From a virus: 21,029 bases of DNA. A program made the position numbers and the translations under genes. The stretch is from UHGV virus genome UHGV-1794847. One strand, written 5' to 3'. The notes below the pieces were generated by a model, which did no database searches, was not told the origin of the DNA, and saw only the letters and a list, made by a program, of their open reading frames with translations. Shown here piece by piece: positions 502 to 10,327 of the stretch (the stretch's first letter is position 1; every line of letters begins with the position of its first letter).

Positions 502-1992
502 TTATGCCTTTTTAGATTTGCGCTTTGCAGCAACTACGACTTCTGCTACGATAGCTTCTACAGTAGCTTCAGTTACAACAGACTTGTCTGCAACTTTTAC
601 AAGAGCTGCATGCAACTTGTAGTTGCCGACTTTGCTGAAAGTGCACTTGAATTCTGTTGTTGCGTTGTATTCTGCAGGTACTGCAAAGCCGCTGTCAGGA
701 CCCCATGCACCACTGTCTTCGAATGTCCAAGGCTGACCCTGTGAATCTGTTGCAGTGAATGTCACATGACCATCTTCAGGTGCTTCTACAATTTCATATT
801 GCAGCTGAACGCCATCAACACCTGCCTTACCAACTACTTCAGTTGCAAGCGTTGCATTGATTGCTACTTCTGTTGCAGGCTGAATGCTTGCAGGGACATC
901 TACAGAAATCTTGTATTCTGATACTTCAGGCTGAACTGGCTCAGCAACAACTACTGTAGACTCTGCTTCAACAACTACACTGTCATCAGCAACCTTGGCA
1001 AGAACTGCATGCAATTTGTATGTGCCAGCCTTGCTAAAGATTACAGTGAACTTTGTAGTTGCATTGTATTCTGCAGGAATGTCAAAGCCTGTTGCAGGCC
1101 CCCAAGTGCCATTGTCGACAAATGTATATTCCTTGCCAGCAGCGTCAGTAGCCTTGAATGTCACATGGCCATCTTCAGGTGCTTCGTCTACACCATAGCG
1201 GAACTGAACTTTGTCAACACCGACATCACCAACAGTCTTCGTTTTGAATGTTGCATCAAGCTCAACTTCAGTGTTTTCGATGATTGTTTCAGGCGCAGAC
1301 ATTTCAAACTCATACTCAGATACTGTTTGCACAGCTTGTTCAAGTTTGATGTTCTTTGTCTTGTTTGAAATCATAGTTTCACGACCAGCCTGGCTAACGT
1401 AGCCCTCTTTAGACACTTCCCAGACAATTTCTTCGCCTGACAAAACAGTCAACGAATTGCGAACTTCACCATTCATCTTGACAACTGCATCTGCAGGTTC
1501 TACATTGATTGTCAGTGTAGCTTTGCTGAGCTCAACAAGCTCCACTACTTGAATGACATCATGGTTTGTGAGCGTGATTGTGCCCTCCTGAGATTCATAG
1601 CCCTCTTTCGACACTTCCCACTTAATTGGAATGCCTGCGGGCACATTCTCAAGCATCTTTGTAGCCTCACCATTGATTTCTACATGAGCATCTTCAGGCA
1701 CTGGCTGAATTGTGATGCTGAACTTGTCTTTGCCAGGTTCAGGGTCTGGTCCGGGTCCTGGGTCATCACCAGTAATTGCAGGGATAATTGTCTTTTCGAT
1801 GACTTTTTGAGCTTCTGCAGTTGTGCCATAGAATTTGAGAGTTTTCTTGGCTTCTTCTACAGACATTTTCTCAAGATTGTCTGCAAGATATGTCAGACCA
1901 GTGACTGCAGCAATTTTCTGCCGCATTTCTGGGCTAATGACTACACCAGTAGATTTGACCACTGGAGCAGCTTGTTTTTGTTTCTTTGCCAT
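502..1992 (-). CDS. Repeat-containing surface/structural-like protein: Pro/Gly/Asp-rich linker, two PEGA-like repeats, two Ig-like ~105-aa repeats
   Basis: ATG at 1990..1992, TAA at 502..504. Two ~60-aa repeats with PEDAHVEINGE / PADAVVKMNGE and WEVSKEGY signatures resembling the PEGA domain; two C-terminal repeats sharing VEAPEDGHVTF..WGP..PAEYNATT..FSK.G.YKLHA. Linker GDDPGPGPDPEPG. Domain names are from memory of family signatures. Confidence 0.75.
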   Translation of the reverse strand: MAKKQKQAAPVVKSTGVVISPEMRQKIAAVTGLTYLADNLEKMSVEEAKKTLKFYGTTAEAQKVIEKTIIPAITGDDPGPGPDPEPGKDKFSITIQPVPEDAHVEINGEATKMLENVPAGIPIKWEVSKEGYESQEGTITLTNHDVIQVVELVELSKATLTINVEPADAVVKMNGEVRNSLTVLSGEEIVWEVSKEGYVSQAGRETMISNKTKNIKLEQAVQTVSEYEFEMSAPETIIENTEVELDATFKTKTVGDVGVDKVQFRYGVDEAPEDGHVTFKATDAAGKEYTFVDNGTWGPATGFDIPAEYNATTKFTVIFSKAGTYKLHAVLAKVADDSVVVEAESTVVVAEPVQPEVSEYKISVDVPASIQPATEVAINATLATEVVGKAGVDGVQLQYEIVEAPEDGHVTFTATDSQGQPWTFEDSGAWGPDSGFAVPAEYNATTEFKCTFSKVGNYKLHAALVKVADKSVVTEATVEAIVAEVVVAAKRKSKKA

Positions 1993-2078
1993 AAGATATT
2001 GTGAATTTGGTTGTTATTCTTAACAAAATATGTACATACAGATGCAACAGATGATATGTCAGATGCACAAAACTGCAT

Positions 2079-2127
2079 AAAATGACCAGACTTGCAAATA
2101 AATTTAAGCAAGTCTGGTCATCAGTTT
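2079..2127 (-). terminator. Intrinsic terminator downstream of the polymerase C-terminal gene
   Basis: Perfect 14-bp inverted repeat atgaccagacttgc (2082..2095) / gcaagtctggtcat (2108..2121) with 12-nt loop, flanked by AAA on one side and TTTT (2124..2127) on the other; lies directly after the stop at 2136. Confidence 0.6.
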
Positions 2128-2135
2128 TGATTGCA

Positions 2136-3428
2136 CTACAACAATGACGGCACTCGTTGAGTTTCAAGTGGGTCACTGACATTGATGCCTGTGTATGCAA
2201 CAAGTCGTTGTATTGGGCCAAGCACGAGTTTTTCGAACATGAGTCGCTTATTCATTGGTGGCACATCTGGCATGTACTTAGGCGTTGGCATTTCACCTGG
2301 CGCAAAGCCAAATGCATCGCAATATTGACGAGAACCAATTGGGATATTTGACAAATCTGACTTTGCTCTATCGACGAAATAGTAGAACACTCTACCGCCT
2401 TCAATCAATGTATATCGTGTTTCCAATCCATGAGCTTTTACAAGTGCGTTATGGTATGCACAAGCCCTGTACTGAGGCAGTACGCCTTTTGCTAACTGCC
2501 ATTCGCCATCATAGCTTAGCACATAGTCATGATACTTGTTTGCATTGACATATGCACAAAGTTTCTCCAAGTCTTGCTCGGCTTCAAAGCGTTTCCATAA
2601 TTTCTGTATGAGCTTTGGATATGTCGCAGAAGTCAATTCACCTCTGAACATTTTCTTGAATGCATAATCAAGCATTTGCCTAACAAGCATTGATGAGCCT
2701 GTTTGAATAAGTTCGATGCCTTTGCCTTGAATGTGCTCAGTAGGGTCTTCGAATACTCGACCATCTACATATATTTGAGCCTTTAAGTACTTTTTCTTTT
2801 GGGCAAATAATGCAGTGTCAGAAATCGTTTCGAGGTCAAATAGCAAAATTGAATTGCCATGACGTTTTGCGAGGTCTGCTGCATATGCCCCATTGAATAA
2901 TTCTTCCATACGATATTTGAATATCGCAAGAATCAAGTCATACCAATTTTTGCCTATGTAGCCAATTGATTTGACAGTTGGCTCAAAGTGAATGTACAAA
3001 GAGTCTGTGTCAATATACAACACTTTGTCTTCATAGGGTTCTTGCTTTGGCGACACAGACAAATCAAAATTGCCCTTCAATTGTGGGTCATTACGCAGCT
3101 TTTCATGCAATTCATAATCACACCACCACTTATTGTTAAGATAGTCATTTGCTACTCGTTCACCAAAGTGAATGAAGTTGCGGCCTTCAGCAGTAATTGA
3201 TTCTGCAACAGCCATATTAAAGAAGTGATAGAAACGATTGCTTGTAGCGCCATATATTGAGTTTCGACAACATTTTGCTGAGACTTGTAGTCCTGCATGC
3301 TTTAGTGATTCTTGCATTGCAAAATCTCTCAATTCAAATAGACGTTCAGTAGACAACTGACTCAAATCACCAGTCAAATCTACTCCATCTATTTCAATTT
3401 TTGACATATCTATCTGAGCTTCTGCCAT
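2136..3428 (-). CDS. Family-B DNA polymerase, C-terminal part (motif B, motif C, thumb)
   Basis: Motif B KCCRNSIYG verified at 3249..3275 (K-x3-NS-x-YG) and motif C YIDTDS at 3000..3017 (YGDTDS-type). Stop TAG at 2136..2138. Start set to ATG at 3426..3428; the track's 3518 start is a TTG codon, and an alternative ATG exists at 3459..3461. Confidence 0.85.
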   Translation of the reverse strand: MAEAQIDMSKIEIDGVDLTGDLSQLSTERLFELRDFAMQESLKHAGLQVSAKCCRNSIYGATSNRFYHFFNMAVAESITAEGRNFIHFGERVANDYLNNKWWCDYELHEKLRNDPQLKGNFDLSVSPKQEPYEDKVLYIDTDSLYIHFEPTVKSIGYIGKNWYDLILAIFKYRMEELFNGAYAADLAKRHGNSILLFDLETISDTALFAQKKKYLKAQIYVDGRVFEDPTEHIQGKGIELIQTGSSMLVRQMLDYAFKKMFRGELTSATYPKLIQKLWKRFEAEQDLEKLCAYVNANKYHDYVLSYDGEWQLAKGVLPQYRACAYHNALVKAHGLETRYTLIEGGRVFYYFVDRAKSDLSNIPIGSRQYCDAFGFAPGEMPTPKYMPDVPPMNKRLMFEKLVLGPIQRLVAYTGINVSDPLETQRVPSLL

Positions 3429-3448
3429 AAGTTGTTTATTTTTGATTT

Positions 3449-3459
3449 TATTGTACAAC
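3449..3459 (-). promoter_or_regulatory. Conserved GTTGTACAATA element (sense strand), 20 nt upstream of the polymerase C-part ATG
   Basis: Plus-strand tattgtacaac at 3449..3459; identical 11-mer also at 8225..8235 and 10317..10327, each upstream of a minus-strand start. Contains a TACAAT -10-like hexamer and the palindrome TTGTACAA. Confidence 0.35.
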
Positions 3460-3496
3460 ATGCAAAACGAGTTTGCACTGTTTTGATACAACGACA

Positions 3497-4459
3497 CTAA
3501 ACTTTTACATGACCACAATCAAACACAGGATAAAATTGCCGTTGTAGCATAGTATTTGTGTCAAAATTGCCATCAATAAGATGTTCGTGTGTGCGCCAAT
3601 TATGCCAATGTTTTTGAATTGTCTGCAAGTTATCTGATTTTTGTGGATTCAATGCAAAGTCTGTTGATAGCACAGGTTCATTGTTCAAATGCGCTTGTAT
3701 TGCTGCAATAACTGCTTCAACAGACATCCACTCAAATGCAGTCACACAAATAAAACCTGCACGCAATGCATCTTGAGTTTTGTAAAAGTGATATGTTGGA
3801 TGAGTTGCTGCGCATTTTGATGCATTTTTGACAAGTGCATCAAAGCTTTTTGCGCTGTTATGCGACACTGTTGGATTGATTTCTACTACGACATTGTCAT
3901 ATCGCAAATCATACAACTTTAAGCCTATTCTGTAGTCATATTCAAAATTTATGCCAAGACGTTCAAATAGCAATGCATGCCAACGTTCATTAAGTTTTGA
4001 CTGTATTTGACCAGATGCTGCTCTGCATTTTGCATGCATGCAAAAATACGGCACATCATATCGCTCTTCACATGTTTGACGCAACTTAGCAATGTTTGCA
4101 GGCCCAAGCTTGCCAAAATGCTTAAGCTTAGTTGCATTTGCTTTGTCAGTATTGCTTGGACCTGCTTTGCCAAAATGTTCAAGCTTTGTCGCATTCGCTT
4201 TGTCAGTATTGCCTGGTCCAAGCTTGCCAAAATGTTTAAGCTTAGTCTGCTTGCATTGCTCTGTTACATATGATAACTGCATATTGTGTTCTACACCATA
4301 TTTTCGCAACATTGCAATTCGCCTGATGTATTTTCTACGAATTTTGCTGTGCGACGTCTTTCTTGGTGCGTATCTAACATATGGTGTATTTGCAATCAAC
4401 TCATCTCGCTCGTTTTCAAGTTTAGCAATACGAGCATCAATCTCTTCTTTTGTCATCAT
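3497..4459 (-). CDS. Repeat-containing putative DNA-binding / homing-endonuclease-like protein, class unassigned
   Basis: ATG at 4457..4459. Three tandem 19-aa repeats (TKLKHFGKLGPGNTDKANA) encoded by a 57-bp DNA repeat; basic N-terminus. Sits between the two polymerase halves, where freestanding endonucleases typically reside. No GIY-YIG or HNH motif recognised; the motif LYDLRYDNVVVEINPTVSH is only loosely nuclease-like. Confidence 0.55.
   Translation of the reverse strand: MMTKEEIDARIAKLENERDELIANTPYVRYAPRKTSHSKIRRKYIRRIAMLRKYGVEHNMQLSYVTEQCKQTKLKHFGKLGPGNTDKANATKLEHFGKAGPSNTDKANATKLKHFGKLGPANIAKLRQTCEERYDVPYFCMHAKCRAASGQIQSKLNERWHALLFERLGINFEYDYRIGLKLYDLRYDNVVVEINPTVSHNSAKSFDALVKNASKCAATHPTYHFYKTQDALRAGFICVTAFEWMSVEAVIAAIQAHLNNEPVLSTDFALNPQKSDNLQTIQKHWHNWRTHEHLIDGNFDTNTMLQRQFYPVFDCGHVKV
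4101..4260 (-). repeat. 57-bp in-frame tandem repeat, about 2.8 copies, inside CDS 3497..4459
   Basis: Units starting near 4108, 4165 and 4222 (gcttgccaaaatgcttaagcttagttgcatttgctttgtcagtattgc and variants); period 57 = 19 codons. Confidence 0.8.
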
Positions 4460-4467
4460 AGCAATTC

Positions 4468-4501
4468 AAAAAATGCAGCAGCAGATGTTCTGCTGCTGCA
4501 T
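4468..4501 (-). terminator. Intrinsic terminator between the SSB-like gene and the endonuclease-like gene
   Basis: Perfect 12-bp stem atgcagcagcag (4473..4484) / ctgctgctgcat (4490..4501), loop atgtt, preceded on plus by an A-run 4468..4472 (a T-run after the hairpin on the minus strand). It ends about 10 nt from the next ATG at 4459. Confidence 0.6.
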
Positions 4502-4543
4502 CGGCAGGTATCTTCACATGTGTTTGAGTTGATTACGATGTGA

Positions 4544-5371
4544 TTAGAATGGCAGGTCGCCATCGTCACCTGCAGCGTCAAATTCAGCTGCAATGTCATA
4601 TACCAACGTCATTGCGATTCGCAAATCGCGCTTCTTAGACTTCAGGCGCATGATATCATGACCAGAATTGTTTGTGATGACTGAACATTCAAACTCTTCA
4701 TTGCCATCAATAAATGACAGCATTGATTTGTGAATTGTGATTGGCGACAAATCAGATGGGTAATTTGCATCAATCACATATTCAAAGTTGTTGTTCTTGG
4801 CAATTAGCCCTCGTTCAGTCGTACGAATCTCAATGCCGGGCAATTCCTTGTCACCAGTATTCAATGAACCATACGATGACATGATGCCAAAGTGATTTGA
4901 CGTCAAATCGAGCTTTCTCAGATTTGTTGTGCTATCAAACAACATTGACATATCATTGTCAGACAGCTCAAAGTAGCCAAGTGATGGCATTGAACAAACC
5001 TGATTGATTTTGAGCTGATTGTTTGAGATTACAATGAGCTCTGCAATTGTATCTGTACCAATTTGTTTGACATAGATTTCAATCATTGCAGATGAGCCAA
5101 ATGCAGCAAGTACTCGATTGTTGAATTGCGTGCCATTGTAAATGAGCGCTTTGACTGTGACATCTTTGAGTGTAGACTCATAATGTTCGCAAATGTCAAG
5201 CACATTAAGTATCTGCGACTTTACAAAGCTACTATTGCCAGCATCAGTTCTGATTCGCTGGTCATTGAGTGAAAAGCTAAGCTTGCCATCGCATTTTAAT
5301 GATGATGCAAACAATGCTCGCAGCATATCAACGTTTGCATTGCGTAATGTAATTTTGTTCAGATTTTCCAT
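4544..5371 (-). CDS. Putative ssDNA-binding protein (SSB-like acidic C-terminal tail)
   Basis: ATG at 5369..5371. C-terminus ...AAEFDAAGDDGDLPF mirrors the acidic tail ending in Phe of bacterial SSB (DDDIPF) and T7 gp2.5; located in the replication module. Fold not verified. Confidence 0.5.
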   Translation of the reverse strand: MENLNKITLRNANVDMLRALFASSLKCDGKLSFSLNDQRIRTDAGNSSFVKSQILNVLDICEHYESTLKDVTVKALIYNGTQFNNRVLAAFGSSAMIEIYVKQIGTDTIAELIVISNNQLKINQVCSMPSLGYFELSDNDMSMLFDSTTNLRKLDLTSNHFGIMSSYGSLNTGDKELPGIEIRTTERGLIAKNNNFEYVIDANYPSDLSPITIHKSMLSFIDGNEEFECSVITNNSGHDIMRLKSKKRDLRIAMTLVYDIAAEFDAAGDDGDLPF

Positions 5372-5439
5372 CTTGTATCTATGTTGTTGATTTTCAATTT
5401 AATATATTGAACAACATTTGTTGACATTTTGCAACATTG

Positions 5440-5814
5440 TCATCGATTGTCGCCTGACCCATGTAGTACGCCTCGTAATTTTCGAGACTGCAGTTTCTGA
5501 ATGTTAAGCTGACAAATGTCAGTTAAGCTGTAGCCCAAATCATGTGCAAGAGTTGCAGCGTACCACATGACATCACTGAGCTCTTTTGCGATTTCCTTGC
5601 GAATGTCTTCATTGTCAAAATCGCCATTCTTGTCTCGAATGACTTTTTTGACTTTGTCTGCAACTTCGCCTGCTTCACCCGTTAAGCCAAGTGTTGGATA
5701 GATAATTGCAGCTGATTTAGGATACACTGCGCTATCAAGTGCAGCAATCTGATATTCATCAATAGTTGAAATCTGTGCATGGTCGATTACGCCATGTTCA
5801 TCTCGTTTAAGCAT
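5440..5814 (-). CDS. mazG: MazG-like nucleoside triphosphate pyrophosphohydrolase
   Basis: ATG at 5812..5814. Motifs LGLTGEAGEVADKVKK and ELSDVMWYAATLAHDLGYSL match the MazG EEXX(E/D) helix signature common in phages. Confidence 0.8.
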   Translation of the reverse strand: MLKRDEHGVIDHAQISTIDEYQIAALDSAVYPKSAAIIYPTLGLTGEAGEVADKVKKVIRDKNGDFDNEDIRKEIAKELSDVMWYAATLAHDLGYSLTDICQLNIQKLQSRKLRGVLHGSGDNR

Positions 5815-5815
5815 A

Positions 5816-6307
5816 TCATTTACGTTTTTGTTTGACTCTCAATCGTTTTTGCATAAATGCTCTTGTAGCTTCACCAAAAGCCATTTCATCTCGTTCACCG
5901 CCGCAAAGCTTTGCAAGCTTATTGAATGTGTCTTGGTCAATCATTGTGTATGTTGAGTTGTTGACCACATGCAATGCAAACTGAATCAGCGGTGTGCCTG
6001 GCTGCAAGCAGAATGGCTCTTTACCTGCATTGTACACTGCAAGATGAATCTCGCCATGATAGTCTGAATCTACAAACTCACTTGTTTTAATGATAAGATG
6101 ATTTCGTGAAATACCCGACTTGTTGTAGGCAATCAATGCATGACCAGCAGGCACAAGTGCTTTGATGCCAGATGGAATTGCAATGCCCTCGCCAGGTTGC
6201 AGCATTGTTTGCACAAAATCATTGGGTATGCAAAAGTCCCATGCGCCAGATTCTGCTGTTGACTTAAAAGGACTTTCTACATTTCTGCATTTTGCAAAGA
6301 ATAACAT
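5816..6307 (-). CDS. dut: dUTPase-like protein (dUTPase/dCTP deaminase superfamily)
   Basis: ATG at 6305..6307, stop TGA at 5816..5818, one nt before the MazG start. Motif-like segments SGAWDF, KSGISRNH, FVDSDYHGEI (compare G-x-ID-x-DYRGE), LIQF, and a C-terminal Gly-rich GGERDEMAFGEAT. Confidence 0.7.
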   Translation of the reverse strand: MLFFAKCRNVESPFKSTAESGAWDFCIPNDFVQTMLQPGEGIAIPSGIKALVPAGHALIAYNKSGISRNHLIIKTSEFVDSDYHGEIHLAVYNAGKEPFCLQPGTPLIQFALHVVNNSTYTMIDQDTFNKLAKLCGGERDEMAFGEATRAFMQKRLRVKQKRK

Positions 6308-6330
6308 ATTAAGTATGCGTTTGTATGTTG

Positions 6331-6675
6331 TTAGTACATTTCTCGTTTAACAAGAGCTTTGCGTTTTGAGCGTAGCCCAGCCCTATTACGCAATTCTACA
6401 GACCAATCACGAATCATTTGCCATGCAATCCCACCACGTTGAATACCACCGTGCTTGAACATTTCATTGCAAATGCCTTGAATAAACACTGCGTCAAACT
6501 TTGTCAGTGCATCGACAATTTGACCATGTGTATCTTCTGATTTGACATCATTGCAAAGCTTAAGCTCATCTACTGAAAGTTCACCAAGCAGCTCATAGTA
6601 ATATATGAGAGCTTTGCGTGCGGCAATTGCTTTTCTTGAATTGCCAGAATAAGACAAAGTTACATGTTTGCTCAT
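6331..6675 (-). CDS. Hypothetical protein (114 aa from ATG)
   Basis: ORF 6331..6681 in the track begins at TTG; first ATG at 6673..6675. 20-nt gap to the polymerase N-part stop. Confidence 0.55.
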   Translation of the reverse strand: MSKHVTLSYSGNSRKAIAARKALIYYYELLGELSVDELKLCNDVKSEDTHGQIVDALTKFDAVFIQGICNEMFKHGGIQRGGIAWQMIRDWSVELRNRAGLRSKRKALVKREMY

Positions 6676-6695
6676 ATTCAATTATTGTTATGGTG

Positions 6696-8201
6696 TTACA
6701 ATTTGATTGCACCTCTACGAGCAAGCTCTTCTTCAATCAATCTAACATGATTGTTAGCATACCAAAATTGCAATTTTTTGTGATAATTGCGAATGTCGCC
6801 AAGCTGTTCTTGAGTTTCTTTATACATTGAAGGCTCTCTATTGTCATACAGACAATTATTGACAGACACAAAGTAATTTGGGTCTGCTTTGTAATGCTCG
6901 ATTTCATCAGGATTTGTCAAACGTCTAATAAAGTTGTCTGGTGAAATATTCGCCGAGCGCATACTTGACGGATACAACGAGTTTGCATCAACACAGACAA
7001 CCATACGAGCCCAATGGTTAAATGGCTGCTTAACAAAGCCGCCCTCAAATGAATGTACAACATTCTCCGGACCGCCTTGAGCGCATACAACTTTACCGCC
7101 ATATTTGTTGTACAAATATGTCATCATGACGCCCTCAGATTGCTTAACTGGTCCTTGACAGTGATTCATGTCAATATTTGTCATATTTGACAATGACATT
7201 ACATTTGATATCAAGTCAGTTTTTGCAGCAATCATCGCATTGACCATCGTATCGACAGCATTATATGCAATGAACGTGCATGGATGATACAAATACAGCT
7301 CTTTAAGTGTGCAATCATAGGGCAGCTTACCTACGCCAAACATACGATGTGCAATATAGTCAAGTCGCAATGACTCTTTTTGCCACACTGAATAGTCGTA
7401 TGTGTCCATGAGTTGCATGTAGTCATCAATGTACTTGTGATATGGCATGCCATTGCCCCAGACAGTTCTGCCAACTGGAGATGCCAATGCTAAATCAATA
7501 TTGTGCATTGCGCATCGATTTTTGATATAGATGCTATCGAAGCCATTGATGTTCCAACCTGTCAATGCAGGAATGTTTTTGAAGAGCTTAGTCACCCAAA
7601 AATGCAACAATTCATGCTCATTTGCATGTTGAAAGATTTTGACAGTCGGACGCTCTTTCAAATATGCAGCAAAGCAATGCTGACCCATGTACTCTTGAAT
7701 GATGTTATTGACAAACTCAAATGCATCGTCCAGTGTTGGGTTTTGTTTGCCACAGCTTTTGCGCAAATCATCGTCATTCAACAAGTCAACAGTTGTCTGA
7801 ATGACACAATTACATTGCTCATCACATGTACTTATTGCATTAATGGGCATTTCAGCTTTGTCAGGCTTTGGAAAGCCATTGCCAATTTCAGTCTCAATAT
7901 CGTAAAAGTACAACTTTGGTCTACGATAAGCAAACAATTCAGCTTTGTCAGCTTCAGGCAATTCAAATAAGAATTGCAGTAAGTCAAATTGATTGAATCG
8001 CTTTGCTGTAACTCGAGTTACTGGCAATTTGCGCCAATCTTGAATATCTGCATATTGCGGCTCTACATGGTCTGATATTTGCCATACTGGAAATTGATAT
8101 GGCTGTTCACAGACAGGATATGTTTTAATATCAATGCCACCTTGCTCATTAACGTATGAAACTTCAATGCCATGTGACAAATATGCTACATCGACAATCA
8201 T
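6696..8201 (-). CDS. Family-B DNA polymerase, N-terminal part (3'-5' exonuclease domain plus motif A)
   Basis: Exo I FYDIETE (about 7893..7901), Exo II-like WNINGFD, Exo III-like YNAVD, and motif A DANSLYPS verified at 6966..6989. Ends with TAA at 6696..6698 about 100 aa after motif A, before any motif B. Start set to ATG 8199..8201; the track's 8237 start is TTG. Confidence 0.9.
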   Translation of the reverse strand: MIVDVAYLSHGIEVSYVNEQGGIDIKTYPVCEQPYQFPVWQISDHVEPQYADIQDWRKLPVTRVTAKRFNQFDLLQFLFELPEADKAELFAYRRPKLYFYDIETEIGNGFPKPDKAEMPINAISTCDEQCNCVIQTTVDLLNDDDLRKSCGKQNPTLDDAFEFVNNIIQEYMGQHCFAAYLKERPTVKIFQHANEHELLHFWVTKLFKNIPALTGWNINGFDSIYIKNRCAMHNIDLALASPVGRTVWGNGMPYHKYIDDYMQLMDTYDYSVWQKESLRLDYIAHRMFGVGKLPYDCTLKELYLYHPCTFIAYNAVDTMVNAMIAAKTDLISNVMSLSNMTNIDMNHCQGPVKQSEGVMMTYLYNKYGGKVVCAQGGPENVVHSFEGGFVKQPFNHWARMVVCVDANSLYPSSMRSANISPDNFIRRLTNPDEIEHYKADPNYFVSVNNCLYDNREPSMYKETQEQLGDIRNYHKKLQFWYANNHVRLIEEELARRGAIKL

Positions 8202-8212
8202 ATTATTATCTT

Positions 8213-8623
8213 TTAGAATAGAGATATTGTACAACAATTTGATTCAGGTTGCCATTCTACAATATGCGCATCAAAGTGTTTGTTAAGCCAATGTGCAAGT
8301 ATGTGTCTATGACAAAATGCAGATGGTCTGCACCAGCATAACAGTACAATGTCTCGTTCACCAGCAAGAAGCTTTATGCGATGCAGCATCAAACTTATCT
8401 GTGACAATGCAGCGTCAAGTTTTGCAGTGTATTGCTCTGCATATTGTGCATTGTCAAGCAAGCCTACTTTATGCAAACGAACAAGTGACATGTAATCAGG
8501 CATGACGTCAGTCCATGTAAAATCTGCTATGAAGCCCTTAGGTTTTGTTGCAGATACTTGAACAAGAAATGCGTTATCAGGCAGATGCCTGCATGCATAA
8601 TATGAAGTCAAGATTCTTGTCAT
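8213..8623 (-). CDS. DUF488-like protein
   Basis: ATG at 8621..8623, overlapping the upstream stop as ATGA. C-terminal RDIVLLCWCRPSAFCHRHILAHWL resembles the conserved LLC..E....CHR.l.a..L block of DUF488 (YeaO-like) proteins, recalled from memory. Confidence 0.5.
   Translation of the reverse strand: MTRILTSYYACRHLPDNAFLVQVSATKPKGFIADFTWTDVMPDYMSLVRLHKVGLLDNAQYAEQYTAKLDAALSQISLMLHRIKLLAGERDIVLLCWCRPSAFCHRHILAHWLNKHFDAHIVEWQPESNCCTISLF
8225..8235 (-). promoter_or_regulatory. Conserved GTTGTACAATA element, 23 nt upstream of the polymerase N-part ATG
   Basis: Plus tattgtacaac at 8225..8235; same 11-mer as at 3449..3459 and 10317..10327. Confidence 0.35.
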
Positions 8624-9543: not shown

Positions 9544-9752
9544 GTGTCATTATGCTTACGACGTTCAATTTCTGCCTCAACGTCATCAATGTCATGATTT
9601 ATTTGAGCAAGACGAATGTCATTGTCATACTCTTTAAGTAGCTGTTCAAACAAATCTTCTTTGAACTGCTTCAAACGTTCATTTGAAAATGCTCTTACGT
9701 TCATATCAAAGTCTACATTCTTTTTCAAGTTTCTTGTCATTGATGACAACAT
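9531..9752 (-). CDS. Hypothetical small charged protein (73 aa)
   Basis: ATG at 9750..9752 (alternative ATG at 9738..9740); overlaps the end of the upstream gene by 47 nt, so the start is uncertain. Confidence 0.4.
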   Translation of the reverse strand: MLSSMTRNLKKNVDFDMNVRAFSNERLKQFKEDLFEQLLKEYDNDIRLAQINHDIDDVEAEIERRKHNDTWNS

Positions 9753-10275
9753 TCAACAAATAGTTGACATGTTTGCATGAATGACGATACATAAAGCCTG
9801 GGCAATCACAATACGCTTGCATTGATTCAGGATATAACACAAGTACATGTGAATTGCCTCGTGAGCCAAAGACTTTGTACTTGACCGGTACTGTCGGCAA
9901 GCCAATCAAATTATTGACGTCTTGTGAATGTCTGATATTATGCAGCTGTTTAAGTGAAACCCAGTGTTCTGCGGCTTCAGTAGCAGACATCAAATTAATG
10001 CCAAATGCTTGTTTATATTGCTGTTTGCAAAACAACTGCCATTTGTGTGCATATACAGAGTTCTTTTGCAGCATCTCTTTATGCAACAAATACTCTTCAA
10101 TATATCTTGGCTGCCAACGAGTTGACCATGACGCAAATTCAGGCACAAACTGAATGTCTTCAAGAGTTGTGCCTGCTGGTACAGAATGCCAAGCATCACC
10201 TGTGCATACATAAGTGCCTGTTGTTGTTACAATTATTGCCGGATTACATTTGCCAATGATTTGAATCTTGTCCAT
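9706..10275 (-). CDS. Hypothetical protein with SWIM-like zinc-finger motif
   Basis: ATG at 10273..10275. C-terminal CDCPGFMYRHSCKH fits the C-x-C-x(n)-C-x-H SWIM pattern. Confidence 0.55.
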   Translation of the reverse strand: MDKIQIIGKCNPAIIVTTTGTYVCTGDAWHSVPAGTTLEDIQFVPEFASWSTRWQPRYIEEYLLHKEMLQKNSVYAHKWQLFCKQQYKQAFGINLMSATEAAEHWVSLKQLHNIRHSQDVNNLIGLPTVPVKYKVFGSRGNSHVLVLYPESMQAYCDCPGFMYRHSCKHVNYLLNVVINDKKLEKECRL

Positions 10276-10316: not shown

Positions 10317-10327
10317 TATTGTACAAC
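10317..10327 (-). promoter_or_regulatory. Conserved GTTGTACAATA element, 41 nt upstream of the ATG of gene 9706..10275
   Basis: Plus tattgtacaac at 10317..10327, followed on the sense strand by ATATAATATAAT (A/T-rich). Confidence 0.35.

What the first reader, a model, noticed from the sequence alone, without database searches (positions are those of the whole stretch)
2136..8201. Family-B DNA polymerase encoded as two genes separated by a 3.3-kb five-gene cassette
The exonuclease motifs and motif A (DANSLYPS, 6966..6989) are in ORF 6696..8201, which ends about 100 aa after motif A. Motif B (KCCRNSIYG, 3249..3275) and motif C (YIDTDS, 3000..3017) are in a separate ORF 2136..3428. Between them are five ORFs with their own starts and stops, plus an intrinsic terminator at 4468..4501. 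The break falls in the fingers region between motifs A and B, so an active enzyme would need the two polypeptides to assemble in trans. Short endonuclease-associated splits of phage polymerases are known; a five-gene cassette between the halves is not an arrangement I can place.
Basis: partly seen in the sequence, partly recalled or inferred. Interest (0 to 1): 0.8.

Follow-up and report, generated by a model that had tools for sequence, protein, structure and literature searches.

The report
Two-piece phage DNA polymerase flanking its clamp
This phage encodes its replicative family-B DNA polymerase as two separate genes broken at the tip of the fingers domain, with the sliding-clamp gene and other genes between them; the arrangement is real and conserved, but it is already present in known phages.

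Summary
All genes lie on the minus strand. ORF 6696..8201 (501 aa) carries the exonuclease motifs, motif A and fingers helix N. ORF 2136..3428 (430 aa) carries motif B, motif C, KKRY and the thumb. The two meet end to end at about T4 gp43 residue 509, the fingers tip, with no overlap, no loss and no room for an intein.

Both halves are under strong purifying selection. Independent assemblies and cultured phages (PAU, MA9V-1/2, pT24, PTm1) show the same split. In one huge phage the halves lie 280 kb apart.

The "five-gene cassette" is not a single unit:
- a universally conserved gp45/PCNA-like sliding clamp (4544..5371);
- a widely conserved dUTPase;
- lineage-specific genes (MazG, a 116-aa ORF);
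- a mobile, homing-endonuclease-like DUF7487 gene (3497..4459), which is absent from a 94%-identical strain.

There is published precedent. T4-related phages 44RR, 25, 31, 65 and 133 have the same fingers-tip split. In phage 133, eight genes (about 2.9 kb) separate 43A from 43B. Split phage 25 and split Pfu enzymes are active.

Verdict: a genuine heterodimeric PolB, and a new member of a known kind.

The parts
6696..8201 (-). PolB N-half (501 aa): N-terminal and 3'-5' exonuclease domains (Exo I FYDIETE, Exo II NINGFD, Exo III YNAVD), palm motif A DANSLYPS, and fingers helix N with the R/K pair (IRNYHKK). It ends ...EEELARRGAIKL.
   Evidence: Pfam exo1 9.5e-13 plus DNA_pol_B positions 40-97. 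Aligned to T4 gp43 residues 61-485. Its end maps to about T4 residue 509. dN/dS 0.03 against L014.
6331..6681 (-). Small ORF of 116 aa (114 aa if it starts at the ATG at 6675, as called in L013/L014). Function unknown. Specific to this lineage.
   Evidence: No Pfam or PHROG hit. Homologues found only in the near-identical strains L013/L014. dN/dS 0.035, based on few substitutions.
5816..6307 (-). dUTPase / dCTP-deaminase-like protein (163 aa). The intervening gene conserved across this subclade and also present in PAU (gp106).
   Evidence: Pfam dUTPase 5.8e-11. phrog_135. 57-63% identical in L005/L007/L009. PAU gp106 is annotated dUTPase. dN/dS 0.008.
5440..5814 (-). MazG-like nucleotide pyrophosphohydrolase (124 aa). 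A variable slot: absent in L005, L007 and L009.
   Evidence: Pfam MazG 7.5e-9. phrog_229 1e-35. Comparison across loci.
4544..5371 (-). Sliding clamp (275 aa, two clamp-fold domains, gp45/PCNA-like) with an acidic C-terminal tail ...DDGDLPF. The one intervening gene conserved in every linked lineage.
4463..4502 (-). Intrinsic-terminator-like hairpin (14 bp stem plus T-run) at the 3' end of the clamp gene.
   Evidence: Conserved in L013 and in the empty-site strain L014, so it belongs to the clamp gene and not to the insertion.
3482..4468 (-). 987-bp insertion that carries only the 320-aa DUF7487 gene (ORF 3497..4459). The gene is a free-standing homing-endonuclease-like mobile gene with 57-nt tandem repeat modules at 4090..4246.
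   Evidence: L014 (94-95% nucleotide identity) has 11 bp in place of these 987 bp. L013 carries a divergent 382-aa allele (37% identity). Pfam DUF7487 1.1e-6. phrog_3339 'homing endonuclease' 8.6e-4; paralogue 1.6e-5; PTm1 gp238 in the same slot 1.1e-8. Repeats.
2136..3428 (-). PolB C-half (430 aa): fingers helix P with motif B KCCRNSIYG, palm motif C YIDTDS, KKRY-type QKKKY, the thumb, and a hydrophobic C-terminal tail ...QRVPSLL that may tether the clamp.
   Evidence: Pfam DNA_pol_B positions 153-353, 3.2e-15. Aligned to RB69 gp43 from residue 529. dN/dS 0.025-0.076. C-terminal comparison.
8225..8234 (-). Promoter-like motif TTGTACAATA, 24 nt upstream of the PolN ATG.
   Evidence: 14 matches with at most one mismatch, against 3.3 expected.
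5405..5414 (-). One-mismatch copy of the same motif (TTGTTCAATA), 34 nt upstream of the clamp ATG.
3449..3458 (-). The same motif TTGTACAATA, 21 nt upstream of the PolC ATG.
   Evidence: Conserved in L013/L014.
2082..2121 (-). Perfect 14-bp inverted repeat just downstream of the PolC stop. Probably the end of the transcription unit.
   Evidence: I6. Also present in L014 upstream of the head-fibre gene.

Best explanation
The window encodes a single replicative family-B (T4 gp43-like) DNA polymerase as two separately translated polypeptides, broken at the tip of the fingers domain.

How it most likely works (inferred):
- The N-half supplies the proofreading exonuclease, the motif A metal ligand and fingers helix N, which carries the triphosphate-binding Arg/Lys.
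- The C-half supplies fingers helix P (motif B), motif C, the KKRY primer grip and the thumb.
- The two chains associate non-covalently. The two fingers helices would pack as an intermolecular antiparallel pair, and the two palm segments would form one catalytic palm.
- The resulting heterodimer works with the sliding clamp encoded between the halves.
- PolN, the clamp and PolC are each preceded by the same promoter-like motif, which suggests co-regulation.

What the intervening DNA is (shown by comparison): not one inserted cassette. It is an old replication and nucleotide-hygiene gene block (clamp, dUTPase) plus variable slots. The slot just upstream of PolC is a hotspot for selfish endonuclease or transposon genes. 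It holds DUF7487 here, in L013 and in PTm1, and TnpB in MA9V-2.

Shown: complementarity of the halves, conservation, selection, clamp fold, insertion polymorphism. Inferred: physical assembly, clamp tethering, promoter function.
For: Complementary, non-overlapping halves:
- Pfam profile ranges, PDB alignments and MAFFT agree.
- The junction falls at about T4 residue 509. The halves total 931 aa against 898 aa for T4 gp43.
- All catalytic motifs are intact but divided between the two chains.
- The roles of helix N R482/K486 and helix P motif B are described in PMC3564110.

Selection and reality:
- dN/dS is 0.025-0.08 for both halves and 0.008-0.095 for the intervening genes.
- The same break point occurs in MA9V-1/2, PAU, pT24, PTm1, L005, L007, L009 and L024.
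- There is a single place per complete genome for each half.
- The halves are 280 kb apart in LR756504, so trans assembly is obligatory there.
- 113 of 158 of the closest sequences (best 150 cluster representatives plus reference sequences) end at the same point.

Experimental precedent:
- Split 43A/43B of phage 25 co-purify and are active (PMC2988022).
- Pfu split at the finger tip behaves like wild type (PMC3061061).

Other parts:
- Clamp.
- Mobile gene.
- Shared upstream motif.
Against: - No biochemical or structural test of association was possible here.
- The rest of this phage's genome is not in the window, so a second polymerase cannot be excluded for this particular genome.
- The promoter motif and the clamp-binding tail are inferred from sequence patterns only.
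- The clamp model has moderate confidence (pLDDT 71) and its domain orientation is imperfect.
Confidence: 0.85

Rival explanations
1. The halves are joined after translation by a split intein (protein trans-splicing), as in 'fractured' PolB genes.
For: Relatives do use this route at another site. PTm1 gp239/gp241 are annotated as an intein-containing split polymerase, with a VSR endonuclease between them and an ...ILVHNS block at the gp241 N-terminus. P0012/L022 is the same kind. MIJ3 is another case (PMC6892783).
Against: The N-half ends and the C-half begins within a few residues of each other on the T4/RB49 alignment. There is no unaligned extension, and the total is 931 aa. There is no Pfam intein hit, no Cys/Ser/Thr +1 context and no HN block at the junction.
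Confidence: 0.02
2. The split gene is a decaying pseudogene pair, or the halves have diverged to separate functions (for example a stand-alone exonuclease), and replication relies on another polymerase.
For: The remainder of this genome is unseen. Iyer et al. report an additional split minimal Pol III alpha in group 2.2 jumbo phages (PMC7824862).
Against: Both halves show dN/dS of 0.03-0.08 with every polymerase motif intact. The split form is conserved down to 26% identity across many lineages. There is no second PolB in the complete relatives.
Confidence: 0.05
3. The 3.3-kb interval is an assembly chimera, or a DNA element that is excised to restore an intact gene.
For: None found beyond the unusual layout.
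Against: The order is identical in independent samples (L013 Logan ERR13912692, L014 ENA ERZ19289541) and in cultured phage genomes. There are no flanking direct repeats, no recombinase and no intron. The interval holds the conserved clamp and dUTPase. Both ORFs have their own stop and start in all lineages.
Confidence: 0.01
4. The split is not merely tolerated but adaptive. A discontinuous finger tip may widen nucleotide substrate tolerance for modified DNA, or may allow separate regulation of the subunits.
For: Split Pfu gains tolerance for bulky gamma-phosphate substituents, and its authors speculate the same for natural splits (PMC3061061). PAU DNA is heavily modified (PMC7824862). The split is retained in most of the closest clusters. 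Nucleotide-pool enzymes sit inside the locus.
Against: Unsplit relatives are interleaved with split ones. There is no direct evidence of modified bases for this phage. Neutral tolerance at a structurally permissive loop, seeded by selfish-element insertion, explains the data equally well.
Confidence: 0.1

Closest known systems
Bicistronic gp43 (43A/43B) of T4-related phages 44RR, 25, 31, 65 and Acinetobacter phage 133 (Petrov et al. 2006, 2010, as cited in PMC3061061 and PMC2988022)
   Same: The break is at the fingers tip at the same alignment position: about T4 residue 509 here, about 510 in 44RR. Sizes are similar: 501+430 aa here, 498+391 in 44RR and 506+392 in phage 133. There are two independent cistrons and no intein. 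In phage 133 eight genes (about 2.9 kb) lie between the halves. In phage 25 a homing endonuclease sits between them.
   Different: The lineage is different: only about 27% identity to T4-type gp43, and the nearest relatives are PAU/MA9V/PTm1-type jumbo phages. Here the split is shared by the window's whole immediate clade rather than being a sporadic variant. The sliding-clamp gene lies between the halves, whereas in T4-like phages gene 45 lies outside, next to 44/62.
Split PolB loci of Sphingomonas phage PAU (gp105...gp110), Chryseobacterium phages MA9V-1/2 and Tenacibaculum phages pT24 and PTm1
   Same: These are homologous halves (26-36% identity) with the same break point and the same PolN...clamp...PolC order. 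PAU also has the dUTPase between the halves.
   Different: The number and identity of the variable genes differ. MA9V-2 carries TnpB where the window carries DUF7487. PTm1 has an additional split-intein break, giving three pieces. As far as I could search, the papers on these phages list the two ORFs without discussing the split.
Engineered split Pfu polymerase (Hansen et al. 2011, PMC3061061)
   Same: It is split near the finger tip. The fragments reassemble and behave like wild type.
   Different: It is artificial, archaeal and bicistronic with coupled translation, and it has no intervening genes.
Methanothermobacter PolB split and split-intein 'fractured' PolB genes (Nanoarchaeum type, MIJ3, PTm1 gp239/241)
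   Same: A family-B polymerase is encoded in pieces at separate loci.
   Different: The Mth break is in the palm, about 83 residues C-terminal of the finger tip (PMC3061061). Fractured genes rely on inteins at motif C. Neither applies to the window's junction.

Membership tests
Family B DNA polymerase (T4 gp43 / RB69 type) | Exo I/II/III motifs, motif A DxxSLYPS, helix N Arg/Lys, motif B KxxxNSxYG, motif C DTDS, and the KKRY motif | tested here: met
   All are present, but divided between two ORFs.
Finger-tip split (bicistronic) PolB | The break lies between fingers helices N and P | tested here: met
   The N-half ends at about T4 residue 509. C-half residue 21 aligns to RB69 residue 529 and its K52 to K560.
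Finger-tip split (bicistronic) PolB | Two cistrons, each with its own stop and start, and no intein or intron at the junction | tested here: met
   TAA at 6696 and ATG at 3428. No intein domain. No Rfam intron. No extra residues at the junction.
Finger-tip split (bicistronic) PolB | The two polypeptides associate and are jointly required for polymerase activity | not testable with these tools
   Shown only for phage 25 and split Pfu in the literature. Supported here indirectly by the composite active site, purifying selection and the unlinked halves in LR756504.
T4-related (Straboviridae) 43A/43B lineage | Descent from the same split event within T4-related phages | tested here: not met
   The window groups with PAU/MA9V/PTm1-type sequences and shares only about 27% identity with T4-type gp43. 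The T4-like split forms nest among unsplit T4/RB49. This points to an independent origin. The tree is NJ only.
Split-intein fractured gene | Intein N- and C-blocks flanking the break, usually with a homing endonuclease gene between them | tested here: not met
   There are no intein blocks at the window junction. They are present at a different site in PTm1 and L022.
gp45/PCNA-type sliding clamp (for ORF 4544..5371) | Two tandem DNA-clamp-fold domains of about 110-130 aa each | tested here: met
gp45/PCNA-type sliding clamp (for ORF 4544..5371) | Ring-forming trimer loaded by a gp44/62-type loader and bound by the polymerase C-terminus | not testable with these tools
   A clamp loader is annotated in relatives (MA9V-1 ORF237, PAU) but none is in the window. 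The PolC tail ...PSLL is only suggestive.
Free-standing homing endonuclease gene (for ORF 3497..4459) | Presence/absence polymorphism at a fixed intergenic site between otherwise near-identical genomes | tested here: met
   987 bp are present in the window, replaced by 11 bp in L014, and L013 has a divergent allele.
Free-standing homing endonuclease gene (for ORF 3497..4459) | A recognisable nuclease catalytic domain | tested here: inconclusive
   Only DUF7487 (1.1e-6) and a weak phrog_3339 'homing endonuclease' hit (8.6e-4). No PDB match. The single-sequence AF2 model failed, pLDDT 35. A Vsr/PD-(D/E)XK-like pattern YDL...VVEINP..SH was seen by eye only.

The most novel reading that the evidence does not exclude
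The finger-tip split could be a selectively maintained architecture of a very large clade of jumbo and huge phages, gained many times. About 100 of the 150 closest 50%-identity clusters are split. A discontinuous finger tip, together with the clamp and nucleotide-sanitising enzymes embedded in the locus, might adapt the replicase to unusual or modified nucleotide pools, or to subunit-level regulation. On this reading the split is not a neutral scar of selfish-element insertion.
Probability: 0.1. Interest if true: 0.65.

Novelty: new member of a known kind. Interest (0 to 1): 0.3.

Why it matters
For annotation, the two ORFs should be read as subunits of one polymerase, and the 275-aa "hypothetical" gene between them as its sliding clamp.

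More broadly, the exhaustive search shows that finger-tip-split PolBs are common in uncultured phages rather than rare T4-family curiosities. They sometimes have unlinked halves, and further breaks occur at motif C. That makes this clade a natural data set for two questions. One is how modular family-B polymerases are. The other is how selfish endonuclease genes fragment essential genes. It may also be a source of naturally split polymerases for engineering.

None of this overturns current understanding.

Tried and rejected
- Megablast of 2000..8400 against the phage collection found nothing. The window is not a sequenced isolate.
- Sequence-profile searches of the 275-aa protein gave only spurious LRR-like hits against PDB and Pfam. 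Its identity came from the fold and from the literature.
- A second word-indexed search with the clamp alignment added only two homologues.
- Single-sequence AF2 of the DUF7487 protein failed, pLDDT 35. phmmer of its C-terminal domain against PDB found nothing. Its nuclease class therefore remains unproven.
- Petrov 2010 (PMID 19896487) is not held. Its content is cited second-hand through PMC3061061 and PMC2988022.
- Split intein, intron, excisable element and assembly chimera were all considered and rejected.
- The clamp profile found no clamp within about 7 kb of either half in LR756504.
- The NJ tree and Fitch count (about 24 state changes) are too weak to decide the number of independent splits. 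I use them only to say the states are interleaved.
- Pfam on the remaining large ORFs of the window gave nothing useful.
Full report
**1. Observation**

All long ORFs of the window are on the minus strand.
- 6966..6989 encodes DANSLYPS (motif A).
- 3249..3275 encodes KCCRNSIYG (motif B).
- 3000..3017 encodes YIDTDS (motif C).
- ORF 6696..8201 starts at the ATG at 8201 and stops at 6696.
- ORF 2136..3428 starts at the ATG at 3428.

Pfam places DNA_pol_B_exo1 plus positions 40-97 of the DNA_pol_B profile in the first ORF. It places positions 153-353 in the second.

Five ORFs with their own starts and stops lie between the two. A 14-bp hairpin with a T-run lies at 4502..4472.

**2. Where the break is**

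- phmmer against PDB aligns the N-half to T4 gp43 residues 61-485.
- It aligns the C-half to RB69 gp43 from residue 529.
- A MAFFT alignment of concatenated halves with intact T4-type and RB49 gp43 puts the last N-half residue at about T4 residue 509.
- The halves total 931 aa against 898 aa for T4 gp43, with no unaligned extension at the junction.

The N-half therefore holds the exonuclease site, motif A and fingers helix N. Helix N carries the conserved Arg/Lys pair (IRNYHKK), corresponding to RB69 R482/K486. The C-half holds helix P (motif B), motif C, a KKRY-type motif (QKKKY) and the thumb. The roles of these elements are described in PMC3564110. The polymerase active site is thus composite, and neither chain can be a polymerase alone.

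**3. Is it real and functional?**

- Near-identical strains from other samples (L013, L014; about 94% nucleotide identity) have the same order.
- dN/dS against them is 0.025-0.076 for PolC and 0.031 for the available part of PolN.
- dN/dS is 0.008-0.095 for the intervening genes.
- tblastn finds the same two-ORF polymerase in several cultured phages: Chryseobacterium phages MA9V-1/2, Sphingomonas phage PAU (gp105/gp110), and Tenacibaculum phages pT24 and PTm1. Each half occurs at one place per complete genome.
- N-half alignments run end to end, and the break maps to T4 residues 505-513 in all of them.
- In the 636-kb uncultured phage LR756504 the two halves are separate ORFs 280 kb apart. Trans assembly is the only option there.
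- An exhaustive HMMER search gave 981 cluster representatives at E<=1e-10. Of the best 150 plus reference sequences, 113 of 158 end within 25 residues of the window's N-half end, and 41 continue as long, unsplit proteins.
- The window's immediate clade is uniformly split. Elsewhere split and unsplit forms are interleaved. The tree is neighbour-joining only, so I do not rely on the count of transitions.

**4. What lies between the halves**

- *Sliding clamp.* The 275-aa ORF 4544..5371 had no Pfam, PHROG or PDB sequence match.
  - An AF2 model (pLDDT 71) has two beta-alpha-beta-beta-beta repeat domains.
  - Homologues lie between the two halves, immediately upstream of PolC in most lineages (next to PolN in PTm1). 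They are found in MA9V-1/2, PAU (gp109), pT24 (gp167), PTm1 (gp237), L005, L007, L009 and L024.
- *dUTPase.* 5816..6307 is shared with L005/L007/L009, and PAU has one in the same interval.
- *Lineage-specific genes.* MazG (5440..5814) and the 116-aa ORF are specific to this lineage.
- *Mobile gene.* The 320-aa DUF7487 gene is an insertion polymorphism.
  - L014 has 11 bp where the window has 987 bp (3482..4468).
  - L013 carries a divergent 382-aa allele that shares the first 57 codons.
  - The same family occupies the corresponding slot in PTm1 (gp238). MA9V-2 has a TnpB there that MA9V-1 lacks.
  - PHROG 3339 "homing endonuclease" matches the family weakly to moderately. The nuclease domain itself could not be confirmed.

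The "cassette" is therefore a mosaic. It combines a conserved replication and nucleotide-hygiene core, variable slots and one selfish gene sitting at the break.

**5. Expression (inferred)**

- The decamer TTGTACAATA, or a one-mismatch variant, lies 21-42 nt upstream of the starts of PolN, the clamp, PolC and ORF 9706..10275. There are 14 matches in the window against 3.3 expected.
- Related GTACAAT-type motifs precede PolN and the clamp in relatives.
- The clamp gene ends in the hairpin terminator, which is also present in the empty-site strain.
- The DUF7487 gene follows the terminator directly, without the motif. That would keep its expression low.
- PolC is followed by a perfect 14-bp inverted repeat.
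- No Shine-Dalgarno sequences are visible. This fits the Bacteroidota hosts of the nearest cultured relatives.

**6. Mechanism**

The best-supported model is a non-covalent heterodimeric PolB that functions with the clamp encoded inside the locus.

Experimental precedent exists. The 43A and 43B products of Aeromonas phage 25 co-purify and are active (PMC2988022). Pfu polymerase split at the finger tip, whether co-translated or reconstituted, behaves like wild type (PMC3061061).

Alternatives were examined and found unlikely: split-intein ligation, an intron, DNA excision, pseudogenisation and misassembly.

**7. Comparison with what is known**

- Finger-tip splits are described for T4-related phages 133, 44RR, 31, 25 and 65, with the ORFs 2 bp to 3 kb apart (PMC3061061).
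- I verified that 44RR has adjacent 43A (498 aa) and 43B (391 aa).
- I verified that Acinetobacter phage 133 has 43A (506 aa) and 43B (392 aa) separated by eight annotated genes, about 2.9 kb.
- The 44RR break aligns within one residue of the window's.
- The window is not a member of that lineage (about 27% identity, different clade). The split is best seen as an independent use of the same permissive loop.
- The identical locus design already exists in deposited genomes (PAU since 2012, pT24, PTm1, MA9V).
- The papers I could search list the ORFs without analysing the split. PTm1's record annotates only its additional intein break.
- Relatives show further fragmentation. PTm1 and L022 have split-intein breaks at motif C. 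L012 has an intein-less break just after motif C.

**8. Verdict**

The finding is real and correctly read as a two-subunit polymerase. Its claimed singularity does not hold. It is a new, uncultured member of a known kind.

Modest added value comes from four points:
- the clamp assignment;
- the dissection of the interval into conserved, variable and mobile parts;
- the insertion hotspot just upstream of PolC;
- the evidence that this split form is widespread.

Noticed in passing
window 4544..4567 (the C-terminus of the clamp ORF 4544..5371): The clamp ends in an acidic tail ...DDGDLPF. This resembles the bacterial SSB C-terminal tip (DDDIPF; from my own knowledge). It is conserved as DDLPF in P0045, P0046, L005, L007 and L009, but not in MA9V, PAU or pT24. 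T4 gp45 has no such tail. It could be a docking peptide for host or phage replisome proteins.
   Followed up: partly
window 8225..8234, 5405..5414, 3449..3458 and 10317..10326 (minus strand): The motif (T/C)GTTGT(A/T)CAATA lies 21-42 nt upstream of the PolN, clamp, PolC and ORF 9706..10275 starts. There are 14 matches with at most one mismatch against 3.3 expected. It is probably a phage-specific promoter class. GTACAAT-like motifs occur upstream of the same genes in L005, L007 and PAU.
   Followed up: partly
window 4090..4246, inside ORF 3497..4459: Three 57-nt tandem modules encode K(L/E)(K/E)HFGK(L/A)GPxNxDKANAT. The L013 allele has more and more divergent modules. Copy number therefore varies between alleles of this DUF7487 gene.
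   Followed up: partly
window 3459..3496, compared with L014 2782..2812 and L013 about 3545..3575: Just 5' of the PolC promoter-like motif, L013 and L014 carry the inverted repeat ACACACATTGCAAAATTGCAATGTGTGT. The window has a different, shorter hairpin (TGCAAACTCGTTTTGCA) at the insertion boundary. It could be a regulatory operator or part of the endonuclease target. This is unexplained.
   Followed up: no
window 8213..8623 (minus strand): A DUF488-N3a / DUF4326 protein (136 aa) is encoded 11 bp upstream of PolN. The PolN promoter-like motif lies within its 3' end. Its function is unknown.
   Followed up: no
window 502..1992 (minus strand): The gene downstream of PolC is a head-fibre protein with Head_fiber_dimeric and PEGA domains. 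It has an internal duplication: about 587-834 and 986-1272 cross-match at 69-74% in related loci. The related phages PTm1/PTm5 are known for head fibres. The length varies between strains (494-740 aa).
   Followed up: no
L012 6537..9320, L022 5197..9507, L018 (PTm1) 2175..8502: Relatives fragment the same polymerase at other points. L012 has an intein-less break 18 aa after motif C (666 aa + 241 aa). L022 and PTm1 have split-intein breaks at motif C, with a gene between the parts (a VSR-type endonuclease gene in PTm1, an uncharacterised 345-aa gene in L022). PTm1 thus has three polymerase pieces.
   Followed up: partly
L002 (MA9V-2) 6007..7173 compared with L001 (MA9V-1): A TnpB (IS605 OrfB / Cas12f-like) gene sits between the clamp and PolC in MA9V-2 and is absent in MA9V-1. 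This is the same slot that holds the DUF7487 gene in the window.
   Followed up: partly
window-wide, upstream of the starts listed: No Shine-Dalgarno-like sequences precede any gene. The upstream regions are A-rich. This fits a Bacteroidota-type host, as for the nearest cultured relatives (Chryseobacterium, Tenacibaculum).
   Followed up: no
L011 10001..11527 (P0020): A finger-tip-split N-half lies next to portal and terminase genes, with no C-half within 10 kb downstream. This is another case of unlinked halves, and its close relative P0017 is broken at a different site.
   Followed up: partly
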